64,000 bases of DNA from an uncultured Chloroflexia bacterium (GTDB lineage: Bacteria; Chloroflexota; Limnocylindria; Limnocylindrales; CSP1-4), in contig CAWHYC010000004.1 in the NCBI GenBank assembly GCA_963833535.1, positions 78,602-142,601 of the forward strand, given 5' to 3'. Positions 36,632 to 44,227 of the stretch are shown here, one piece after another. A model generated the notes under the pieces. That model worked only from the letters and a program-made list of their open reading frames with translations, searched no databases and was not told the origin of the DNA. The translations under genes and the position numbers were made by a program. Every line of letters begins with the position of its first letter. Position 1 is the first letter of the stretch.

Positions 36632-37845
<1,214 letters not shown>

Positions 37846-37849
37846 GCTG

Positions 37850-38939
37850 TCAGACTCCTCCTGCGGCAGCAGGACGACCTTGCCGGCGTGGCCCAGCGGC
37901 GACGAGGTCGAAGGCCTCGTCGATAGTCGGCCAGCGGCAGCCGATGGGTGATGATGGGTGTCAGGTCGAGGCCCTCTTCGAGCAGCGCCGTGGTCCGGTA
38001 CCAGGTCTCGAACATGCGTCGGCCAGTGATGCCGTAGACACGGATGCCCTTGAAGATCACCTCCTCGGAGAGGTCCATTGTCGCCGGCTGGGCGTGGGTG
38101 CCGAGGAGCGAGATGCGGCCGCCATTGGTCAGCGCTGCGAGGCCTTGGTGCAGCGCCGCCTCCGAACCGGACATCTCCAGCACGACGTCGACCCCGTCGC
38201 CGTCGGTCAGCGTCCTCAGTCGGGCGACCACGTCGTCGCGCGCGTCGATGACCTCGTCGCGCGCCCATCCGACGGGCGATCTCGAGGCGTTCCGGCGTTG
38301 AGGTCGGTGGCGAAGACATGACGGGCCCCGGCAAGACGGGCGATGGCGACCGCCATCAGGCCGATCGGCCCGCAGCCGAGTGACGACGACGCTCTGTCCG
38401 GCGATCTCTTCCACGAAGGCCGCGTGGACCGCGTTGCCCATCGGCTCCTGCAGCGCGGCCACTTCCGGGGTCAGCCCCTCGCTGACCCAGGCGTTGGTCT
38501 CCGGGATGACCGCATATTGTGCGAACGAGCCGGGCGCATGGACGCCGAGGATGCGCAGGTGCTGACAGACGTGGGCCCGCCCGGTCCGGCACTGGTAGCA
38601 GGTCCAGTCGACGAGGTGTGTCTCGGCCGCGACGAGCTCGCCGAGGCCGACGCGCCCGGTGCCTGGGCCGTGCGCGACCACGATGCCGGCCATCTCGTGC
38701 CCGAAGATCATCGGGGGCACGACGTGCTCCTGGGCCCACGCATCCCAGCGCTCGATGTGGACGTCGGTGCCACAGACGCTGGCGGCCAGGACCTTGACCA
38801 GCACCTCGCCCGGGCCGGGTTGGGGCAGCGGCACCTCGCGAAGCTCAGCGCCCGGAGCTGCCGTGGCCTTGACGAGGGCGCGCATCGTGCGCGGCAAGGC
38901 CACCGGCTCGACCGCCTCCAACGCCGCGCGCTGGGTCAT
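37850..38939 (-). CDS. tdh: L-threonine 3-dehydrogenase; several frameshifts
   Basis: VCGTDVHI, GHE, QEPMGNAVH, GCGPIG (shifted), LEMSG, GITGRRMFETW. Confidence 0.88.
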
Positions 38940-38979
38940 CGTCAGCCGCGCGGACCGGTCTGGGTCATGTGGCCGTCGC

Positions 38980-39867
38980 TCAGCGGAAGCACAGGCCGCG
39001 CTCTGGCGCGGCCGGCGGGTCGATCCATTGCTCGGCGAAGGCGATGCCCTGCGCGGCGACGGCCTCGTCGGCCAGCAGCTCGCGGTCCCACGACACGTAC
39101 GCGAACCGCGTCGCCATGTCGTCGAATTGCGCGACGAGGACCTTGTTGGGCACACCGCATGAGATCGCGCCGTCGGTCGTAGGGGTGTCGTCGAAGACCG
39201 TCTTGAGCTCGGCGAGCTCGGCCGCGGAGGGACAGCTCTTGCCGTCGGCGCCACAGCTGTAGAGCGCGAGCACGAAGCCGTGCTCGAGGTTGTGGACCCA
39301 CTGCTGTGGCTGGATCGGCTCCTCCGGTCCATAGAAGGCTCGCGGTGCGGGCGCTTCGCCGGCGATCGCCCAATGGTTGCCCGACGCCGGCGGACAGTAG
39401 GCGTAGTCGATGACCTGGTTCGTGTCCCGGACATGCGACCGGCCAAGGTCGTCGACGGGGAACCCGACGCGTTGGGTCGGGCCCGGCTCCGGCGTCGGTC
39501 GAGGCGTGGCGGTCGCGCCCGCCGCCAGGCTCGGCTGGGGGCTGTTCGGGTCAGGCGTCGCGGTCGACGTGGGGGACGCGGTGGCGGACGGAGCGGACTC
39601 GATCGGCCCTGGCGTCAGCATGCTGCCGCAGGCGTAGGTCTTCGAGGTCGACGACACGACGAAGACGGAGAGCAGGATGAGGACGCCCGCGACCGTGAAG
39701 GCCAACAGCAGGATGCCACCGAAGCGGTCCAGGAAGCCGCGCTGGGTCTGGGTCACCCGCCGGCTGCGACGCCCCGCCCGGGCCGTGCCCGACGGGCTCG
39801 TGGAGGTCGAGGACTGAGCGGCCTCGGTCGCGCGTCGATCGCGCTCGCGACGAGTCGGTTTTGCCAC
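38980..39867 (-). CDS. DUF3105 domain membrane protein
   Basis: PPASGNHW and VHNLEHG motifs after one TM. Confidence 0.8.
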   Translation of the reverse strand: MAKPTRRERDRRATEAAQSSTSTSPSGTARAGRRSRRVTQTQRGFLDRFGGILLLAFTVAGVLILLSVFVVSSTSKTYACGSMLTPGPIESAPSATASPTSTATPDPNSPQPSLAAGATATPRPTPEPGPTQRVGFPVDDLGRSHVRDTNQVIDYAYCPPASGNHWAIAGEAPAPRAFYGPEEPIQPQQWVHNLEHGFVLALYSCGADGKSCPSAAELAELKTVFDDTPTTDGAISCGVPNKVLVAQFDDMATRFAYVSWDRELLADEAVAAQGIAFAEQWIDPPAAPERGLCFR

Positions 39868-40040
39868 GGTGGTCGAGGGGCCCTCATGAAGCGGACCGGG
39901 CAGTCGCGGACCGCGGTGGTCTCGCGCGCCCGGATCGAGTGAGCTGGGACCCGCACAGGGTACCGCAGACGCCCGGCATGGCGCCCTGAGCAAGCCACCC
40001 GGGGCTCGCTGCGTCGGTCGCCTGCCGGAGCGACCAGGCC

Positions 40041-40452: not shown

Positions 40453-43398
40453 TCAGGCCGCGGCCTCCTCCTGGATGGCCTGCGCGATGGCGGCCACGGC
40501 ATCGGGGGCCAGCGCGCCACCCGCCTCGCGGCGCAGCTGCGCCAGCGCGTCGGTCGATGACAGGCGTGCCGAGCGCGGCTCGCCGGCGATCAGCGAGTGA
40601 TACCGATCCACCGCGGCATACAGCCGAGCCCGCGGCGAGATCGACTCGCCCCGCAGCCCGTCGGGGTAGCCGCCGCCATCCCAGCGCTCGTGGTGATGAC
40701 GGACGATGTCGGTCACTGCGTCGAGCTCTCGGTAGGGCTCGAGCAGGCTGGCGCCGATGACCGGATGCGAGGCGGTCATCGCGCCGCCGGTGGCCTCTGC
40801 GCCCGAGACCGCCGCCAAGCGCCCGATGTCGATGATCAGGGCGGCCGCGACCACGGCCTCGGTCGTCTCCTGGTCGAGGCCATAGGCAGGCCCGAAACGG
40901 CCGCAGAGGTCGGCGACCTCGGCGTTCTGACGGGCCAGCGCGGGCGCCTGCGGTCGGAGGAGCTCGTGCAGCGGCCGGACGAGCGAGACGATGTCGAGGA
41001 CGACGTCGGGATCGCGCTCCCGGCGCTCGTGCGCCGCGCGTACGTCCTCCTCGAGGCGCGTGCGCATCTCCCTGACGTGGGTCGGCAGGTCGCCAGCCGC
41101 GACCGCCCGCCCCTTGCCGAAGTGCTTGGCCACGAAGAGCGCCGTGTCGGCGATCGAGACCAGGTCCCGGGCGTCCTTGGCGTCCTGCGGGAAGGCGGCC
41201 GTGCCGATGCTGGCGCCGACGCGCAGCTCGCTGTCGCCCGAGCGCGAGCGCAGCTCCGCGAAGCGACGCAGGACCTTGCGCGCCACCGCGCTGGCACCCG
41301 CCTCGTCGGTGCCGGGCAGGATGAGCGCGAATTCGTCGCCGCCGTAGCGGCAGACGAGGTCGCCCGTCCGCACGCTGCGCCGCAGGCCGTCGGCGATGCG
41401 GCGGAGCAGGCGATCGCCCGCCTGGTGGCCGAACTGGTTGTTATAGGAGCGGAAGTCGTCGAGATCGATCATCAGCACGGCCACCGGGCCGGCGTTGACG
41501 CGCTCGGTGAGCTCGTCCTGGAAGACGCCATGGTGGAGGAGGCCAGTCAACGGATCGTGCCGGGCGGCCTCACGCAGCTGGCCGTAGAGGATGGCGTTGT
41601 CGAGTGCGATGGCGGCATGGTTGGCATAGAGCTTGGCCAGGTCGAGCTCGCCTTGCTCGAAGTCCCGCCCGATGCGGTAGAGGTTGAGCGCGCCCATGAC
41701 GCCGTTCGGGCCATGGAGCGGGGCGACGATGATCGACTCGTAGTCGTCGTCTGGCGTGCCCGGCACGTTCACGACCCGGGGATCGCGACCGGCGTCGTTG
41801 ATGCACTCCGCTTCGCCGCGCTGGACGACCGAGCCGGTGATACCGGCTCCGAGCGGCAGCTTCGCCTTGAGGATCTCCTCGGCGAACTGGTCACGCGCCA
41901 GGACGGGCACCAGCAATCCCGCCGCCTGGTCCACCCGGTAGATCGTCAGCGTGTCGTAGGGCACGACCGTCTCGAGCGTCTCGGCGATGGCCTCGAAGGT
42001 GGCGTCGATCTCGCGCGTCTGGAGCAGGCGCTCGGTGACGCCCAGCAGGAGGCGCTCGCTCTCGAGCTGGTGCTCAAGTCGCAGGGATCGGCGCTCGAGC
42101 TCCTCGTGGCGGGCCGCGTTCTCGAGCGCGACCGCGGCCTGGGCGCCGAGGATCTGCATCAGCCGAAGGTCGTCCGGCTCGAAGGCGTCGCAGCCCAGAC
42201 GCGAGAGCTCGATGACGCCCAGGACGCGCTCCTCGAAGACGAGCGGGATGACGATCATCGACTCATCGATGTCGTCGCTGCCGGCGATGTCCTGCATGCG
42301 TGGGTCGGCCAGCACGTCGGGCACGATCTCCGCCTGGCGCCCGAGGGCGATGGTGCCGCCGAGCCCTTCGCCGAGTCGCAGGACGACGAGCTCCGGCGTC
42401 TCATTGGCGTAGTACTCGACCCGCGACCGGAGCGCGATCGCGTCGAGCGTCTCGCCATCCGGCTGGAGCACGTAGAAGCGCAACCCGTCGTAGTCGATGA
42501 CGTCGCCGATCTTCTCGGCCACGGTCTCGCCGACGCCGATGATGTCGCGCGAGTGGTTGAGCTGACGAGAGAGGGCCTCGATGCCCTCGAGGTGCTCACT
42601 CCAGCGGCGGCTGGTGGCCAGCAGGCGGGCATTCGTGAGCGCCGTCCCGGTCTGGCCCGCGATGGCCATCACGCGATCGACTTCGAGGCTCGAGAATCGG
42701 CGTGGGCGCAGGGACGCGACGACGAGCATGCCGGTCACGCCTTCCTCACCCGAGATGGGCACCAGGACGATCGAGCGAACGCCGAGCGTGGGCACGACCG
42801 CGGGGCCGACCTGGACCTCCGCGGGGAGGTCGTCGATGACCAGGGGCCGCCGCTCGACCAGGACCTGATCCAGTCGTCCGCCACCCTCGGCCGGCACAAC
42901 GAGGTCGGCCGGCAAGGTCATCTCGCCGGCCGATGCCGTCGGCGTCAGGACTCGCCCGCCGTCCTGGTCCTGAAGGATGAAGAGGCTCACCAGGTCGGCG
43001 TCCATGACCGTGCGTAGCCGTTGGGTGACGAGCCGCGTGATGGCGGTCGTGTCGAGCAGTCCAGCGAGCTCAGCCGAGAGGTCGGCCAGGTCGGTCAGCT
43101 CACCGACCAGGTGGGCCGTGGCCGCTCCGTCACCCCGGACGCCGCCAGCGGCCGGCCTGCCGGCAGGGACGGCTTGAGCATGTGCCGCAGCTTCACCGCC
43201 AGCCCGGTTGGTGGCCGTCGCGAGATGGTCGTCGAGGATGGTGCGCTTGAAGCGCCACGTCCGGCCGACCTTGGAGGCGGGTACCTGACCGCGCTGGGCA
43301 AGCCGATACAGGGTCCGAACCGGGACGGCCAGGTAGGCCGCGGCATCCTCGATGCCGATCCAGTCGTCATGCCCACCCCCCGTGGCGGTCCTCTTCAT
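40453..43398 (-). CDS. Excisionase-like HTH + 3 GAF + GGDEF + degenerate HD-GYP protein
   Basis: EDAAAYLAVPVRTLYRLAQRGQVPASKVGRTWRF; three GAF segments; DPLTGL, RTGD, RYGGDEF; HHERWDGGGYP but ID in place of HD. Confidence 0.9.
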   Translation of the reverse strand: MKRTATGGGHDDWIGIEDAAAYLAVPVRTLYRLAQRGQVPASKVGRTWRFKRTILDDHLATATNRAGGEAAAHAQAVPAGRPAAGGVRGDGAATAHLVGELTDLADLSAELAGLLDTTAITRLVTQRLRTVMDADLVSLFILQDQDGGRVLTPTASAGEMTLPADLVVPAEGGGRLDQVLVERRPLVIDDLPAEVQVGPAVVPTLGVRSIVLVPISGEEGVTGMLVVASLRPRRFSSLEVDRVMAIAGQTGTALTNARLLATSRRWSEHLEGIEALSRQLNHSRDIIGVGETVAEKIGDVIDYDGLRFYVLQPDGETLDAIALRSRVEYYANETPELVVLRLGEGLGGTIALGRQAEIVPDVLADPRMQDIAGSDDIDESMIVIPLVFEERVLGVIELSRLGCDAFEPDDLRLMQILGAQAAVALENAARHEELERRSLRLEHQLESERLLLGVTERLLQTREIDATFEAIAETLETVVPYDTLTIYRVDQAAGLLVPVLARDQFAEEILKAKLPLGAGITGSVVQRGEAECINDAGRDPRVVNVPGTPDDDYESIIVAPLHGPNGVMGALNLYRIGRDFEQGELDLAKLYANHAAIALDNAILYGQLREAARHDPLTGLLHHGVFQDELTERVNAGPVAVLMIDLDDFRSYNNQFGHQAGDRLLRRIADGLRRSVRTGDLVCRYGGDEFALILPGTDEAGASAVARKVLRRFAELRSRSGDSELRVGASIGTAAFPQDAKDARDLVSIADTALFVAKHFGKGRAVAAGDLPTHVREMRTRLEEDVRAAHERRERDPDVVLDIVSLVRPLHELLRPQAPALARQNAEVADLCGRFGPAYGLDQETTEAVVAAALIIDIGRLAAVSGAEATGGAMTASHPVIGASLLEPYRELDAVTDIVRHHHERWDGGGYPDGLRGESISPRARLYAAVDRYHSLIAGEPRSARLSSTDALAQLRREAGGALAPDAVAAIAQAIQEEAAA

Positions 43399-43400
43399 CC

Positions 43401-43440
43401 CTTGGTTTCCCCTGGATTGCGCGTTGTTACCACTTGTTGC
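43401..43440 (-). promoter_or_regulatory. Four 10-bp-phased GNAA direct repeats upstream of the HTH-GGDEF gene
   Basis: Minus strand GCAAcaagtg GTAAcaacgc GCAAtccagg GGAAaccaag. Confidence 0.5.
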
Positions 43441-43609
43441 GCAGTCTGCAGAGGGCGCTGTCGAGCGTCGATAGGACCATCGTCCCCGGTCTCGACACCG
43501 ATCGGCGAACGCTCCTCAGCAGCGATCGTCTCGTTGCCAGCGGCGACGGGCGCACAGCCTTCCGGGCGCCGGCGGGATGACGCCGATGCCTCGCTATACT
43601 CCGGCGGCC

Positions 43610-44227
43610 GTGGACCTCCCGCTCACTCCAGCCGAGCCTGCGCTGACCAGCGCCCTGGCCGCCGTGTTCGACATCGAGGGCAAGGTCGGGCGTGCCCTCG
43701 AGGCCCTGGGGCCGGTCGCCGACCGAGATGTCGTGCTCCTCGATGGCGACGGCGGACGCCGGCAGGCGGAGCTGGAGGCCATGGGCGCCAGCGTCCGGGC
43801 GCTCGATGACCTCGACCCCGGACAACTTGAGGGGGCGTCGGCCGACGTCGTCATCGGCTGCTGGACCGGCCTCGGACTGGGTCCGGCCGCAGAGGCCGGA
43901 ACGCTGGCCGGCCTGGAGCGTGTCCTGCGGCCGGACGGTCGGCTGCTGCTGGTCGAGGATTACGGCCGCGACGACATCCGGCCGCTGATCGCCGACCCTG
44001 ATCGCGACGCGCGGCTGACTGTCGCCTCCGATCGGCGAGGACCGATGCTGACCCACGGCTTCAGGACACGGACGCTCCATTGCTACTGGACCTTTCCCAG
44101 TCTCGACGCCGCGGGACCGCTCCTCGAGGCGCTCTTTCCCGACACCGGCCCGATGGTCGCCGCTGCGATGCGCCGACCGCGGCTCGAGCACAAGGTGGCC
44201 GTCTTCCAGCGAACGCGCAGCGCGTGA
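43610..44227 (+). CDS. Hypothetical protein, SAM-methyltransferase-like remnant fold
   Basis: SADVVI, RVLRPDGRLLLV; TATACT upstream of GTG. Confidence 0.6.
   Translation: MDLPLTPAEPALTSALAAVFDIEGKVGRALEALGPVADRDVVLLDGDGGRRQAELEAMGASVRALDDLDPGQLEGASADVVIGCWTGLGLGPAAEAGTLAGLERVLRPDGRLLLVEDYGRDDIRPLIADPDRDARLTVASDRRGPMLTHGFRTRTLHCYWTFPSLDAAGPLLEALFPDTGPMVAAAMRRPRLEHKVAVFQRTRSA

What the first reader, a model, noticed from the sequence alone, without database searches (positions are those of the whole stretch)
40453..43440. Putative DNA-binding diguanylate cyclase with phased operator repeats at its own start
Seen: an N-terminal excisionase/BldC-like HTH joined to three GAF domains, an intact GGDEF with an RxxD I-site and a degenerate HD-GYP (HD changed to ID). 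Immediately upstream of the ATG are four GNAA units at exact 10-bp spacing (GCAA, GTAA, GCAA, GGAA; 43440-43401). Known: Xis/BldC-type domains oligomerise head-to-tail on direct repeats about one helical turn apart, and GGDEF enzymes need dimerisation for activity. Inference: an autoregulatory one-component system where assembly on DNA could switch c-di-GMP synthesis, with the dead HD-GYP as a nucleotide sensor. I do not know a characterised example.
Basis: partly seen in the sequence, partly recalled or inferred. Interest (0 to 1): 0.75.

Follow-up and report, generated by a model that had tools for sequence, protein, structure and literature searches.

The report
DNA-binding c-di-GMP enzyme with own operator
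A soil-type Chloroflexota bacterium encodes a c-di-GMP-making enzyme fused to a DNA-binding domain, and its promoter carries a conserved phased repeat found nowhere else in the assembled genome, so the enzyme probably controls its own gene.

Summary
Window 40453-43398 (-) encodes a 981-aa protein. Its order is HTH_17 (excisionase/BldC-type winged helix), a variable linker, three GAF domains, an intact GGDEF with an RxxD I-site, and an HD-GYP whose HD is ID.

The fusion is not an assembly artefact. It is intact in 8 other complete orthologues. A sister group in the same lineage (MAGs labelled Limnocylindria/Limnocylindrales) ends in EAL instead.

The repeats are real but need redefining. The conserved element is GCARCAA-NN-G-GYARCAA-NNN-GCAR (window 43440-43417), about 2.5 units at 10-bp phase. 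The fourth unit (GGAA) is not conserved and overlaps the Shine-Dalgarno-like AGGGGA.

The element lies upstream of all 35 family loci examined, whatever the output domain or neighbouring gene, while its flanks have diverged to background. It occurs once in the 2.9-Mb assembly (38.6 bits; next best 12.0). It sits between a -10-like hexamer and the ribosome-binding site.

Best reading (about 0.6): a self-operator bound head-to-tail by the protein's own HTH, probably repressing. It is the cyclase counterpart of the HTH-EAL trigger enzyme PdeL.

DNA binding, the sign of regulation and any coupling to catalysis are untested.

The parts
40453..43398 (-). Gene for the 981-aa HTH_17 / 3xGAF / GGDEF / degenerate HD-GYP protein (P0001), stop codon included
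   Evidence: It is the only in-frame start after the upstream stop.
43219..43362 (-). HTH_17 (excisionase/MerR-like winged helix), residues 13-60
   Evidence: Pfam E 2.1e-11; TIGR01764 at 44 bits against a cut-off of 28.8. The AF2 model has mean pLDDT 79.6 with the order strand, helix, helix, strand, strand, helix. Best Foldseek matches are RdfS excisionase 8dgl, BldC 6ama/6amk, RacA and Xis proteins. 22 columns are invariant across 23 family members.
43084..43218 (-). Variable-length, Ala/Gly/Pro-rich linker between the HTH and the first GAF (about residues 61-105)
   Evidence: This stretch is gap-rich and unconserved in alignment A1. Model pLDDT falls to 64 in residues 61-70.
41599..43047 (-). 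Three GAF domains (residues 118-254, about 269-443, 462-600)
   Evidence: GAF, GAF_2 and GAF_3 each in three stretches.
41110..41565 (-). GGDEF domain, residues 612-763. DLDDF is at 41452-41466, the RTGD I-site at 41359-41370 and GGDEF at 41329-41343.
   Evidence: Pfam 3.5e-38 and TIGR00254 3.8e-39. The motifs are kept in 9 of 9 orthologues.
40519..40965 (-). Degenerate HD-GYP (HD_5), residues 812-960. The first His is replaced by Asn (ARQNAEV, 40915-40935). HD is replaced by ID (IIDIGR, 40819-40836). HHERWDGGGYP is intact (40663-40695).
   Evidence: Pfam 1.5e-23. Alignments to solved HD-GYPs 4mcw, 4r8z, 5z7c and 9rbz. Both histidines are missing in 9 of 9 orthologues, while HHExxDGxGYP is kept.
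43417..43440 (-). Conserved phased direct repeat, the putative operator: GCAACAA gtg GTAACAA cgc GCAA. Units start at 43440, 43430 and 43420.
   Evidence: Present in 35 of 35 family loci and in the window. Information content is high at columns 0-6, 9-16 and 20-23 and near zero in the flanks. It scores 38.6 bits on a PWM built from other loci; the next best site in the 2.9-Mb assembly scores 12.0.
43408..43413 (-). Shine-Dalgarno-like AGGGGA, 9 nt before the ATG.
   Evidence: An SD-like word followed by an in-frame start 9-19 nt after the repeat recurs in most loci. The GGAA unit itself is not conserved outside close relatives.
43443..43448 (-). -10-like hexamer CAGACT, 2 nt upstream of the repeat (inferred)
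   Evidence: In 28 of 35 sequences (34 loci plus the window) a TANNNT hexamer ends 0-11 nt upstream of the repeat, against 1.3% at random anchors. The window and its closest relatives have CAGACT at that place. The simple sigma-70 scan found no promoter here.
43467..43478 (-). Second conserved block, GGTCCTATCGAC. It contains a -35-like TCGACG (43466-43471) 17 bp upstream of the -10-like hexamer (inferred).
   Evidence: The block is 12 nt long, more than a -35 hexamer needs, and that excess is unexplained.
43577..44227 (+). Divergently transcribed 216-aa ORF (P0121) with only a distant class I methyltransferase likeness. It shares the 178-bp intergenic region.
   Evidence: No Pfam family at E <= 0.001. 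Its nearest Atlas clusters are Chloroflexota hypotheticals, of which 10-17% of members carry Methyltransf_11. It is syntenic in only 12 of 35 loci, all with an HD-GYP-type or truncated HTH gene.

Best explanation
The gene encodes a cytoplasmic one-component c-di-GMP signalling protein. Three GAF sensor domains control an apparently active diguanylate cyclase that carries a product-inhibition I-site. Behind it is a conserved, catalytically crippled HD-GYP domain. An N-terminal excisionase/BldC-type winged-helix domain is tethered to the rest by a flexible linker.

The gene's own promoter carries one conserved operator, GCARCAA-NN-G-GYARCAA-NNN-GCAR, with units exactly one helical turn apart. 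It lies between the -10-like hexamer and the ribosome-binding site.

Proposed mechanism: the HTH domains of a GAF/GGDEF-mediated dimer (or higher oligomer) bind adjacent units head-to-tail on one face of the DNA, over the transcription start. This represses the protein's own transcription and sets the level of the enzyme. Sensor or c-di-GMP state may modulate DNA binding, as in the trigger phosphodiesterase PdeL.

Shown here: the domain architecture, the conservation of the fusion, and the conservation, uniqueness and placement of the repeat. Inferred: that the protein's own HTH is the binder, that the effect is repression, and that signal state alters binding.
For: 1. Architecture and motifs.

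2. The fusion is conserved. Of the 120 clusters listed, 21 carry HTH_17+GAF+GGDEF+HD_5 (down to 53% identity) and 45 carry HTH_17+GAF+GGDEF+EAL. One search gives 8 complete HD_5-type and 15 complete EAL-type ORFs among 35 loci; the other 12 are cut by a contig end or a frame break.

3. The repeat is upstream, on the gene's strand, in 35 of 35 family loci. It hits only 3 times elsewhere in 446,732 scanned bases of those loci. No match within the 6-mismatch limit appeared at the 13 loci with unrelated small HTH_17 genes (L055, L056, L058-L068).

4. Conservation is confined to the repeat cores. The spacers and flanks are at background although N-terminal identity falls to about 50%. The 10-nt period rules out codon-based conservation.

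5. The element follows the HTH gene and not its neighbour. The divergent ORF is syntenic in only 12 of 35 loci. Output domains (HD-GYP or EAL) and GAF number (2 or 3) vary.

6. It is single-copy. The strict and loose patterns occur once in the 2.9-Mb assembly. On the PWM the site scores 38.6 bits against 12.0 for the next best, and the weakest training site scores 26.1. In 41 related genomes the strict pattern occurs 12 times and never twice in one genome. Ten of the 12 lie directly upstream of a family gene. None occurs in the 16 genomes of the sister family, where P0001 found no relative. The reversed control pattern hits once.

7. The HTH is the most conserved part of the protein, with 22 invariant columns in 23 members. 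That matches the invariant repeat cores.

8. The fold class is RdfS, BldC and Xis. BldC binds direct repeats as head-to-tail multimers (PMC5859096, passages read).

9. Placement. A TANNNT hexamer ends 0-11 nt upstream of the repeat in 28 of 35 sequences, against 1.3% at random anchors, with distance classes of 0-4 and 10-11 nt. The CAGACT loci sit at 2 nt and, in L040, 13 nt by my reading of the sequences. An SD-like word and a start codon follow 9-19 nt after the repeat in most loci.

10. Precedent: PdeL (HTH plus EAL) binds its own promoter and autoregulates in a c-di-GMP-dependent way (PMC5052742, passages read).
Against: - No binding data exist. The link between the HTH and the repeat rests on co-occurrence, and any cis-element of this gene's promoter would co-occur with the gene.
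- The genome encodes six further HTH_17 matches and many other regulators that were not excluded as binders.
- The element lies in or at the edge of the transcribed leader, so an RNA-level role is positionally possible.
- The -10 and -35 assignments are pattern-based. The simple sigma-70 scan found 0 promoter-like sites in 43200-43800, and the window's hexamer CAGACT is a poor -10.
- In some EAL-type loci (L033, L034, L038, L042, L043) in-frame start codons lie before or inside the repeat, so its place relative to translation is not uniform.
- The assembly is only 74.67% complete, so 'single copy' holds for what is assembled.
- Foldseek E-values for the 70-residue model are weak (0.036 at best). 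The sequence search of solved structures gave only Pukovnik Xis at E 0.33.
Confidence: 0.6

Rival explanations
1. The repeat acts in the mRNA leader rather than in DNA. It would be an A/C-rich, unstructured 5' UTR element just upstream of the ribosome-binding site that tunes translation or stability, or that is bound by an RNA-binding factor.
For: The repeat lies between the -10-like hexamer and the SD/start codon, so it is probably transcribed. It is always on the coding strand. Its A/C-rich sequence is largely unpaired in the centroid fold.
Against: There is no Rfam match at E <= 1. The leader fold is no better than shuffles (z -0.42). A general translation enhancer should recur in the genome, yet the next best site scores 12.0 bits against 38.6. 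An exact 10-nt phase, and offsets from the -10 that fall into classes about one helical turn apart, suit a DNA helix. The co-inherited domain is a double-stranded-DNA-binding winged helix.
Confidence: 0.15
2. The repeat is the binding site of another, dedicated regulator or part of a specialised promoter. The fused HTH would act elsewhere, for example binding DNA non-specifically or tethering the enzyme to the nucleoid.
For: Co-occurrence cannot tell the binder apart. The own genome holds six other HTH_17 matches. A second conserved block, GGTCCTATCGAC, sits upstream and shows that other conserved promoter features exist.
Against: A separate regulator would need to be co-inherited across clades whose neighbouring genes differ; the divergent ORF is syntenic in only 12 of 35 loci. 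The repeat geometry does not fit a promoter: the two cores are 10 bp apart, not about 23, and GG-N9-GC misses the sigma-54 spacing by one. No Sigma54_DBD was found in the 74.67%-complete assembly. The invariant HTH recognition surface implies a conserved specific target, and the only conserved specific DNA element found with the gene, apart from promoter-like blocks, is this repeat.
Confidence: 0.15
3. One reading: the main purpose of DNA binding is allosteric. Head-to-tail assembly on the phased repeats brings GGDEF domains together and switches on c-di-GMP synthesis, and the dead HD-GYP senses a nucleotide.
For: GGDEF enzymes act as dimers (established knowledge). The repeat would place two or three protomers side by side. 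The HD-GYP degeneracy is conserved in 9 of 9 orthologues while the GYP part is kept, which suggests a retained binding role.
Against: There is one operator in the assembled genome, so at most a few molecules per chromosome could be activated this way. Three GAF domains already offer dimerisation and allosteric control. EAL-type relatives carry the same HTH and repeat, so the DNA link is not specific to cyclase output. Nothing here tests catalysis.
Confidence: 0.08
4. The repeat is chance or mere shared ancestry with no function.
For: The four-unit GNAA pattern was chosen after looking, and related sequences share ancestry.
Against: It is found in 35 of 35 loci, against 3 hits in 446,732 other bases. 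Flanks are at background information content. The pattern is absent from 100 shuffles of the window. A PWM built without the window still scores the window's site at 38.6 bits.
Confidence: 0.02

Closest known systems
PdeL (YahA) of Escherichia coli, a 'trigger' c-di-GMP phosphodiesterase (PMC5052742, passages read)
   Same: It is a c-di-GMP-metabolising enzyme with an N-terminal HTH in the same polypeptide. It binds its own promoter and autoregulates, with c-di-GMP state modulating its activity as a transcription factor.
   Different: PdeL has a LuxR-type HTH and an EAL domain. It binds an imperfect palindrome far upstream and activates. Here the HTH is HTH_17 (Xis/BldC type) and the enzyme part is GAFx3-GGDEF with a dead HD-GYP. 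The site is a 10-bp direct repeat over the start region, which suggests repression. None of the functional features has been tested here.
BldC of Streptomyces and the excisionases RdfS, lambda Xis and Pukovnik Xis (PMC5859096, passages read; PMC11963761, search listing only)
   Same: The winged-helix fold is the same; these are the top Foldseek matches. BldC multimerises head-to-tail on direct repeats about one helical turn apart. RdfS is described as oligomeric in its paper's title. That lambda Xis binds this way is recalled, not taken from a call.
   Different: Those are small stand-alone proteins of about 55-70 aa. BldC's unit is AATTNNNN(C), with four repeats in a 36-mer. Identity to BldC in the structural alignment is 18-19%, and 28-30% to RdfS. 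Here the domain is the N-terminus of a 981-aa enzyme and the unit is GCARCAA at 10 bp.
DgcM-MlrA-PdeR module of E. coli (PMC5052742 passages; PMC3715855, search listing and start of abstract only)
   Same: A diguanylate cyclase works together with a MerR-like transcription factor to control transcription.
   Different: There the cyclase and the DNA-binding protein are separate polypeptides and the target is csgD. Here a MerR/Xis-like domain is fused to the enzyme and the only site found is its own promoter.
GAF-GGDEF-HD-GYP proteins without an HTH (clusters P0089-P0107, about 900-1070 aa; one is labelled Actinomycetota)
   Same: They share the GAF, GGDEF and HD_5 core, at 39-43% identity over about a third of the query.
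   Different: They lack the HTH_17 domain. Their upstream DNA was not examined.
PucR-family regulators such as MabR (PMC11617747, search listing and start of abstract only)
   Same: They combine a GGDEF-fold domain with an HTH in one regulator.
   Different: According to the start of that abstract, the GGDEF domain lies in the C-terminal part together with an all-alpha effector domain. I recall, without having read it, that this GGDEF-like domain is non-catalytic and that the HTH is C-terminal and of another type. Here the GGDEF motif looks catalytic and the HTH is N-terminal HTH_17.

Membership tests
Diguanylate cyclase (GGDEF domain, PF00990 / TIGR00254) | Profile match above the curated cut-off | tested here: met
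   PF00990 at 131.4 bits against 23.8; TIGR00254 at 134.1 bits against 37.4.
Diguanylate cyclase (GGDEF domain, PF00990 / TIGR00254) | Intact GG[D/E]EF active-site motif and the upstream acidic metal-binding motif | tested here: met
   RYGGDEF at 684-690 and DLDDF at 645-649, kept in 9 of 9 orthologues. That DLDDF is the metal-binding motif rests on recalled knowledge.
Diguanylate cyclase (GGDEF domain, PF00990 / TIGR00254) | RxxD allosteric I-site five residues before GGDEF (optional feature) | tested here: met
   RTGD at 677-680. RxxD is kept in 9 of 9 orthologues.
Diguanylate cyclase (GGDEF domain, PF00990 / TIGR00254) | Synthesis of c-di-GMP from GTP | not testable with these tools
   This needs an enzyme assay.
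HD-GYP c-di-GMP phosphodiesterase (HD_5, PF13487) | Profile match above the cut-off | tested here: met
   83.8 bits against 27.2. Solved HD-GYPs 5z7c, 4r8z and 4mcw match at E 2e-11 to 1.6e-9.
HD-GYP c-di-GMP phosphodiesterase (HD_5, PF13487) | HD metal-ligand dyad and the preceding His ligand | tested here: not met
   ID aligns to the HD of 4mcw 'HDIGK', and Asn aligns to the His of 9rbz 'gHs'. The His of the dyad is I, V, T, S or A in 9 of 9 orthologues. The protein should not be filed as an active HD-GYP.
HD-GYP c-di-GMP phosphodiesterase (HD_5, PF13487) | HHExxDGxGYP motif | tested here: met
   HHERWDGGGYP at 902-912; HHE followed by DG.GYP is kept in 9 of 9 orthologues.
HTH_17 / excisionase-family DNA-binding domain (PF12728, TIGR01764) | Profile match above the cut-off | tested here: met
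   44.4 bits against 27; 44 bits against 28.8.
HTH_17 / excisionase-family DNA-binding domain (PF12728, TIGR01764) | Winged-helix fold of the Xis/MerR type | tested here: met
   AF2 model with E13-15, H16-23, H27-36, E42-44, E47-51 and H52-67, pLDDT 79.6. Top matches are RdfS, BldC, RacA and Xis proteins with probabilities 0.89-1.00 but E-values of only 0.036-0.7.
HTH_17 / excisionase-family DNA-binding domain (PF12728, TIGR01764) | Sequence-specific DNA binding | not testable with these tools
   This needs EMSA or footprinting.
BldC family | Small stand-alone protein (about 68 aa) made only of the wHTH | tested here: not met
   The domain is the N-terminus of a 981-aa protein. The short HTH-only hits I looked at (P0122, P0127, P0128) end inside the linker. 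P0122 and P0127 end in sequence unlike the orthologues' linker, and the companion P0008 has an out-of-frame C-terminus. This protein may work like BldC but is not a member.
BldC family | Binds AATTNNNN(C) direct repeats head-to-tail | tested here: not met
   The conserved repeat here is GCARCAA at 10-bp phase. The binding mode itself could not be tested.
Trigger enzymes of c-di-GMP signalling (PdeL type) | Catalytic c-di-GMP domain and a DNA-binding domain in one protein | tested here: met
Trigger enzymes of c-di-GMP signalling (PdeL type) | Direct binding to a target promoter, modulated by c-di-GMP turnover | not testable with these tools
   Only the conserved single-copy repeat at the gene's own promoter is shown.

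The most novel reading that the evidence does not exclude
This would be the first diguanylate cyclase that is itself a sequence-specific transcription factor, a 'trigger cyclase' with its own DNA-binding domain. Occupancy of a single chromosomal operator would be coupled to sensor and c-di-GMP state through the GAF domains, the I-site and the conserved dead HD-GYP. The enzyme would then set its own level by product-sensitive autorepression. In the boldest version, catalysis would be switched on when the protein assembles head-to-tail on the repeat.
Probability: 0.25. Interest if true: 0.8.

Novelty: new variant of a known kind. Interest (0 to 1): 0.6.

Why it matters
Enzymes of c-di-GMP turnover that also act as transcription factors are known from very few cases: PdeL directly, and PdeR/DgcM through MlrA. 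Four keyword searches of the paper library found no described cyclase with its own DNA-binding domain; subscription-only papers are outside that library.

Here a whole family in an uncultured Chloroflexota lineage shows that design, with 21 HD-GYP-type and 45 EAL-type clusters among the 120 listed. It comes with an unusually clean, single-copy, 24-bp candidate operator.

That gives a sharply testable system. A 70-residue domain and a 24-bp site would suffice to ask three questions:
- How do Xis/BldC-type domains read direct repeats when tethered to a dimeric enzyme?
- Does second-messenger state feed back on the enzyme's own transcription?
- What does a conserved degenerate HD-GYP do?

Tried and rejected
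- Sigma-54 promoter reading of the repeat: rejected. The spacing is GG-N9-GC and not N10 (read from the sequences), and no Sigma54_DBD was found in the 74.67%-complete assembly.
- Known RNA family: no Rfam match at E <= 1 in 43250-43700. The leader fold is not better than shuffles (z -0.42).
- Regulon search: strict, loose and PWM scans of the assembly found no second site. The three extra fuzzy hits in related loci are single GCAGCAA words or unrelated sequence.
- RNA-seq support for a transcription start: no RNA holder was listed.
- Self-association of three copies of the HTH (residues 8-70): complex prediction gave no verdict (score 0.11 against a mark of 0.42). This is not evidence either way.
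- HTH as a separate gene: the short HTH-only proteins found include some from long contigs. P0122 and P0127 end in sequence unlike the orthologues' linker. P0008, the 97%-identical long partner, also has a scrambled C-terminus. I read these as frame errors or pseudogenes and not as a split architecture. The other short hits were not inspected.
- Sequence-only search of solved structures with the HTH profile gave one weak hit, 4j2n Xis at E 0.33.
- Simple sigma-70 and terminator scan of 43200-43800: 0 sites.
- Earlier findings of this scan: nothing on record near this place.
- My first impression that the divergent ORF is a methyltransferase is not supported by Pfam. Only a distant likeness appears in the Atlas.
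- Covariation between HTH residues and repeat variants (GTA or GCA in unit 2) was looked at by eye only. It showed no clean pattern and was dropped.

Full report
OBSERVATION. The minus-strand ORF 40453..43398 encodes 981 residues. ATG 43398 is the only in-frame start after the upstream stop. Pfam finds HTH_17 (residues 13-60, E 2.1e-11), three GAF stretches (118-254, about 269-443, 462-600), GGDEF (612-763, 3.5e-38) and HD_5 (812-960, 1.5e-23). NCBIfam agrees, with TIGR00254 and the excisionase-family domain TIGR01764.

The cyclase motifs are intact: DLDDF at 645-649, RTGD at 677-680 five residues before GGDEF, and GGDEF at 686-690. In alignments to solved HD-GYP enzymes the HD of 'HDIGK' (4mcw) is ID here, and the earlier His ligand is Asn. 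HHERWDGGGYP is intact.

Upstream, GCAA, GTAA, GCAA and GGAA start at 43440, 43430, 43420 and 43410. The four-unit pattern occurs once in the window and in none of 100 shuffles.

THE FUSION IS REAL AND DEFINES A FAMILY. A search of the 5.8-billion-protein collection listed 120 clusters. Of these, 21 carry HTH_17+GAF+GGDEF+HD_5, at 100% down to 53% identity. A further 45 carry HTH_17+GAF+GGDEF+EAL. Where the sources give names, they are mostly 'Candidatus Limnocylindrales' or Chloroflexota.

Among 35 family loci fetched from species-representative genomes, Pfam on the ORFs gave three groups:
- 8 complete HD_5-type proteins.
- 15 complete EAL-type proteins.
- 12 ORFs cut by a contig end or a frame break.

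Short HTH-only proteins exist. Those I inspected end inside the linker. P0122 and P0127 end in sequence unlike the orthologues' linker. P0008, the 97%-identical partner, also has a scrambled C-terminus. I read these as frame errors, not as a split gene.

Across 9 HD-GYP-type orthologues the GGDEF and RxxD motifs are kept. The two HD-GYP histidines are missing in all 9, while HHExxDGxGYP is kept. The HD-GYP is thus anciently and stably degenerate.

THE HTH. It is the best-conserved part of the protein, with 22 invariant columns in 23 members, including PxRTxY..Q and KVGRTWRF. A variable-length, low-complexity linker follows it. An AlphaFold2 model (pLDDT 79.6) has the order strand, helix, helix, strand, strand, helix. 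The best Foldseek matches are the RdfS excisionase (8dgl, 28-30% identity, rmsd 1.5-1.6 Å), BldC (6ama, 6amk), RacA, and the GIsul2, Pukovnik and lambda excisionases. Probabilities are 0.89-1.00 but E-values only 0.036-0.7, as expected for so small a domain. By sequence alone only Pukovnik Xis appears, at E 0.33. BldC binds direct repeats as head-to-tail multimers (PMC5859096, passages read).

WHAT THE REPEAT REALLY IS. Upstream regions of orthologues at 54-86% protein identity share a sharply bounded block. Anchored on it, 35 sequences give the consensus GCARCAA-NN-G-GYARCAA-NNN-GCAR. Information content is high at columns 0-6, 9-16 and 20-23 and near zero in spacers and flanks.

The element therefore has two full 7-nt units and a partial third, exactly 10 bp apart (window 43440-43417). 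It overlaps the Shine-Dalgarno-like AGGGGA at 43413-43408, 9 nt before the ATG.

Detection figures:
- The first 23-mer screen missed three family loci (L029, L038, L052). They carry slightly degenerate copies or a copy with a 1-nt insertion.
- With a core pattern allowing two substitutions, 35 of 35 loci have the element in the 340-nt upstream window on the gene's strand. Only 3 hits occur in the remaining part of 446,732 scanned bases, and those three are not real copies.
- The 13 loci with unrelated small HTH_17 genes (L055, L056, L058-L068) gave no match within the 6-mismatch limit.

THE ELEMENT BELONGS TO THE HTH GENE AND TO NOTHING ELSE.
- It is present whether the output is HD-GYP or EAL and whether there are two or three GAF domains.
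- The divergent upstream ORF (43577-44227, a Chloroflexota hypothetical with only a distant methyltransferase likeness) is syntenic in only 12 of 35 loci.
- In the window's own 2.9-Mb assembly (74.67% complete) the strict and loose patterns occur once.
- A PWM built from 29 other sites, leaving out the window and its near-identical relative, scores the window's site at 38.6 bits. The next best site in the assembly scores 12.0. The weakest training site scores 26.1.
- In 41 related genomes the strict 17-mer pattern occurs 12 times and never twice in one genome. Ten of the 12 lie directly upstream of a family gene. The other two lack the third unit and any nearby family gene. The reversed control pattern hits once.
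- None of the 16 genomes of the sister family has the pattern, and P0001 found no relative in them.

PLACEMENT.
- A TANNNT hexamer ends 0-11 nt upstream of the repeat in 28 of 35 sequences, against 1.3% at random anchors.
- The window and its close relatives have CAGACT (43448-43443) 2 nt upstream. L040 has CAGACT 13 nt upstream (my reading of the sequences).
- A TCGAC(G/C) word lies 16-18 bp further upstream in many loci, within the conserved block GGTCCTATCGAC (43478-43467).
- The offsets fall into two classes about one helical turn apart: 0-4 and 10-13 nt.
- Downstream, an SD-like word and an in-frame start follow 9-19 nt after the repeat in most loci.
- In a few EAL-type loci a start codon lies before or inside the repeat.

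So the element fills the space between the -10 and the ribosome-binding site, around the expected transcription start.

Caveats. These promoter assignments are inferences. The simple sigma-70 scan found no promoter here. No RNA run was listed from which to map the start.

MECHANISM. The most economical reading has three steps:
- The HTH domains of a dimeric or oligomeric enzyme bind adjacent units head-to-tail on one face of the helix.
- Because the site covers the start region, binding probably represses the gene, giving negative autoregulation.
- GAF ligand or c-di-GMP state may alter binding, through the I-site or the dead HD-GYP.

This parallels PdeL, an HTH-EAL enzyme that binds its own promoter and autoregulates in a c-di-GMP-sensitive way (PMC5052742, passages read). 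The architecture, the fusion and the cis-element are shown. The binder, the sign of regulation and the coupling to signal state are inferred. I put about 0.6 on own-HTH autoregulation.

RIVALS.
- RNA-level leader element (0.15). The position allows it. Against it: no Rfam hit, no special fold, uniqueness in the genome, the exact 10-nt phase and the helical-turn offset classes.
- Another factor's site or a special promoter (0.15). Co-occurrence cannot exclude it, and six other HTH_17 matches exist in the genome. But the geometry does not fit sigma-70 or sigma-54, no sigma-54 was found, and the neighbouring genes are not conserved.
It is untested. One operator per assembled genome and the same element in EAL-type relatives make it unlikely as the main purpose.
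- Chance (0.02). Contradicted.

COMPARISON AND NOVELTY. The system works like a trigger enzyme of the PdeL type and like BldC or Xis on DNA. It is a member of neither family:
- It is not a stand-alone BldC.
- Its repeat differs from BldC's AATTNNNN(C).
- Its HTH is not LuxR-type.
- Its HD-GYP fails the HD test.

Four keyword searches and passages of a 2023 review (PMC10333796) turned up no described cyclase with its own DNA-binding domain. The phrase 'trigger diguanylate cyclase' occurs in three listed papers that I did not open. From recall it refers to DgcM, which acts through MlrA. Subscription-only literature is not covered.

I rate this a new variant of a known kind, with interest 0.6. 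It is a clean, conserved and readily testable case in an uncultured lineage, resting so far on comparative evidence only.

Noticed in passing
own genome G000, contig C6, about 73170-76142 (+); outside the window: A second, different HTH_17-GAF-GGDEF paralogue (RxxD and GGDEF present) with an unrelated HTH sequence. It has no GCARCAA repeat. Just upstream of its HTH lies an inverted repeat, TTGGTAGGT-N24-ACCTACCAA. HTH_17-cyclase fusions may therefore have arisen or diversified more than once in this lineage, each with its own site.
   Followed up: partly
window 43467-43478 (-): A 12-nt block, GGTCCTATCGAC, is conserved upstream of many family members. That is longer than a -35 hexamer needs, so it may be a second protein-binding site. 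The 11-mer GGTCCYATCGA occurs 5 times in the assembly.
   Followed up: partly
window 43577-44227 (+): Divergent 216-aa ORF without a Pfam family. Its Atlas neighbours are Chloroflexota hypotheticals, of which 10-17% of members carry Methyltransf_11. It is syntenic only with the HD-GYP-type members. It shares the 178-bp control region and so may be co-regulated.
   Followed up: partly
L007 / L021 (same-genus genome G001, contig C2 about 384189-387129): The 93-97%-identical orthologue matches in two pieces (query residues 1-518 and 516-981) and its frame closes after 651 aa. This is either a frame error in the assembly or a pseudogene.
   Followed up: no
L036:4241 and L039:6446, and the same place in L044 and L037: About 60 nt after the stop of the HD-GYP-type gene in one clade, the next gene is preceded by a TTGACG word and a single GCAGCAA unit directly before GGAG and ATG. 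One unit only, so possibly chance.
   Followed up: partly
window 38980-39993 (-), 37788-39446 (-), 37327-38334 (-): Pfam hits fall on ORFs downstream of the gene on the same strand: DUF3105, zinc-type alcohol dehydrogenase domains and an aminotransferase class I/II fragment. Several of these ORFs overlap one another, so the true gene boundaries there remain unresolved.
   Followed up: no
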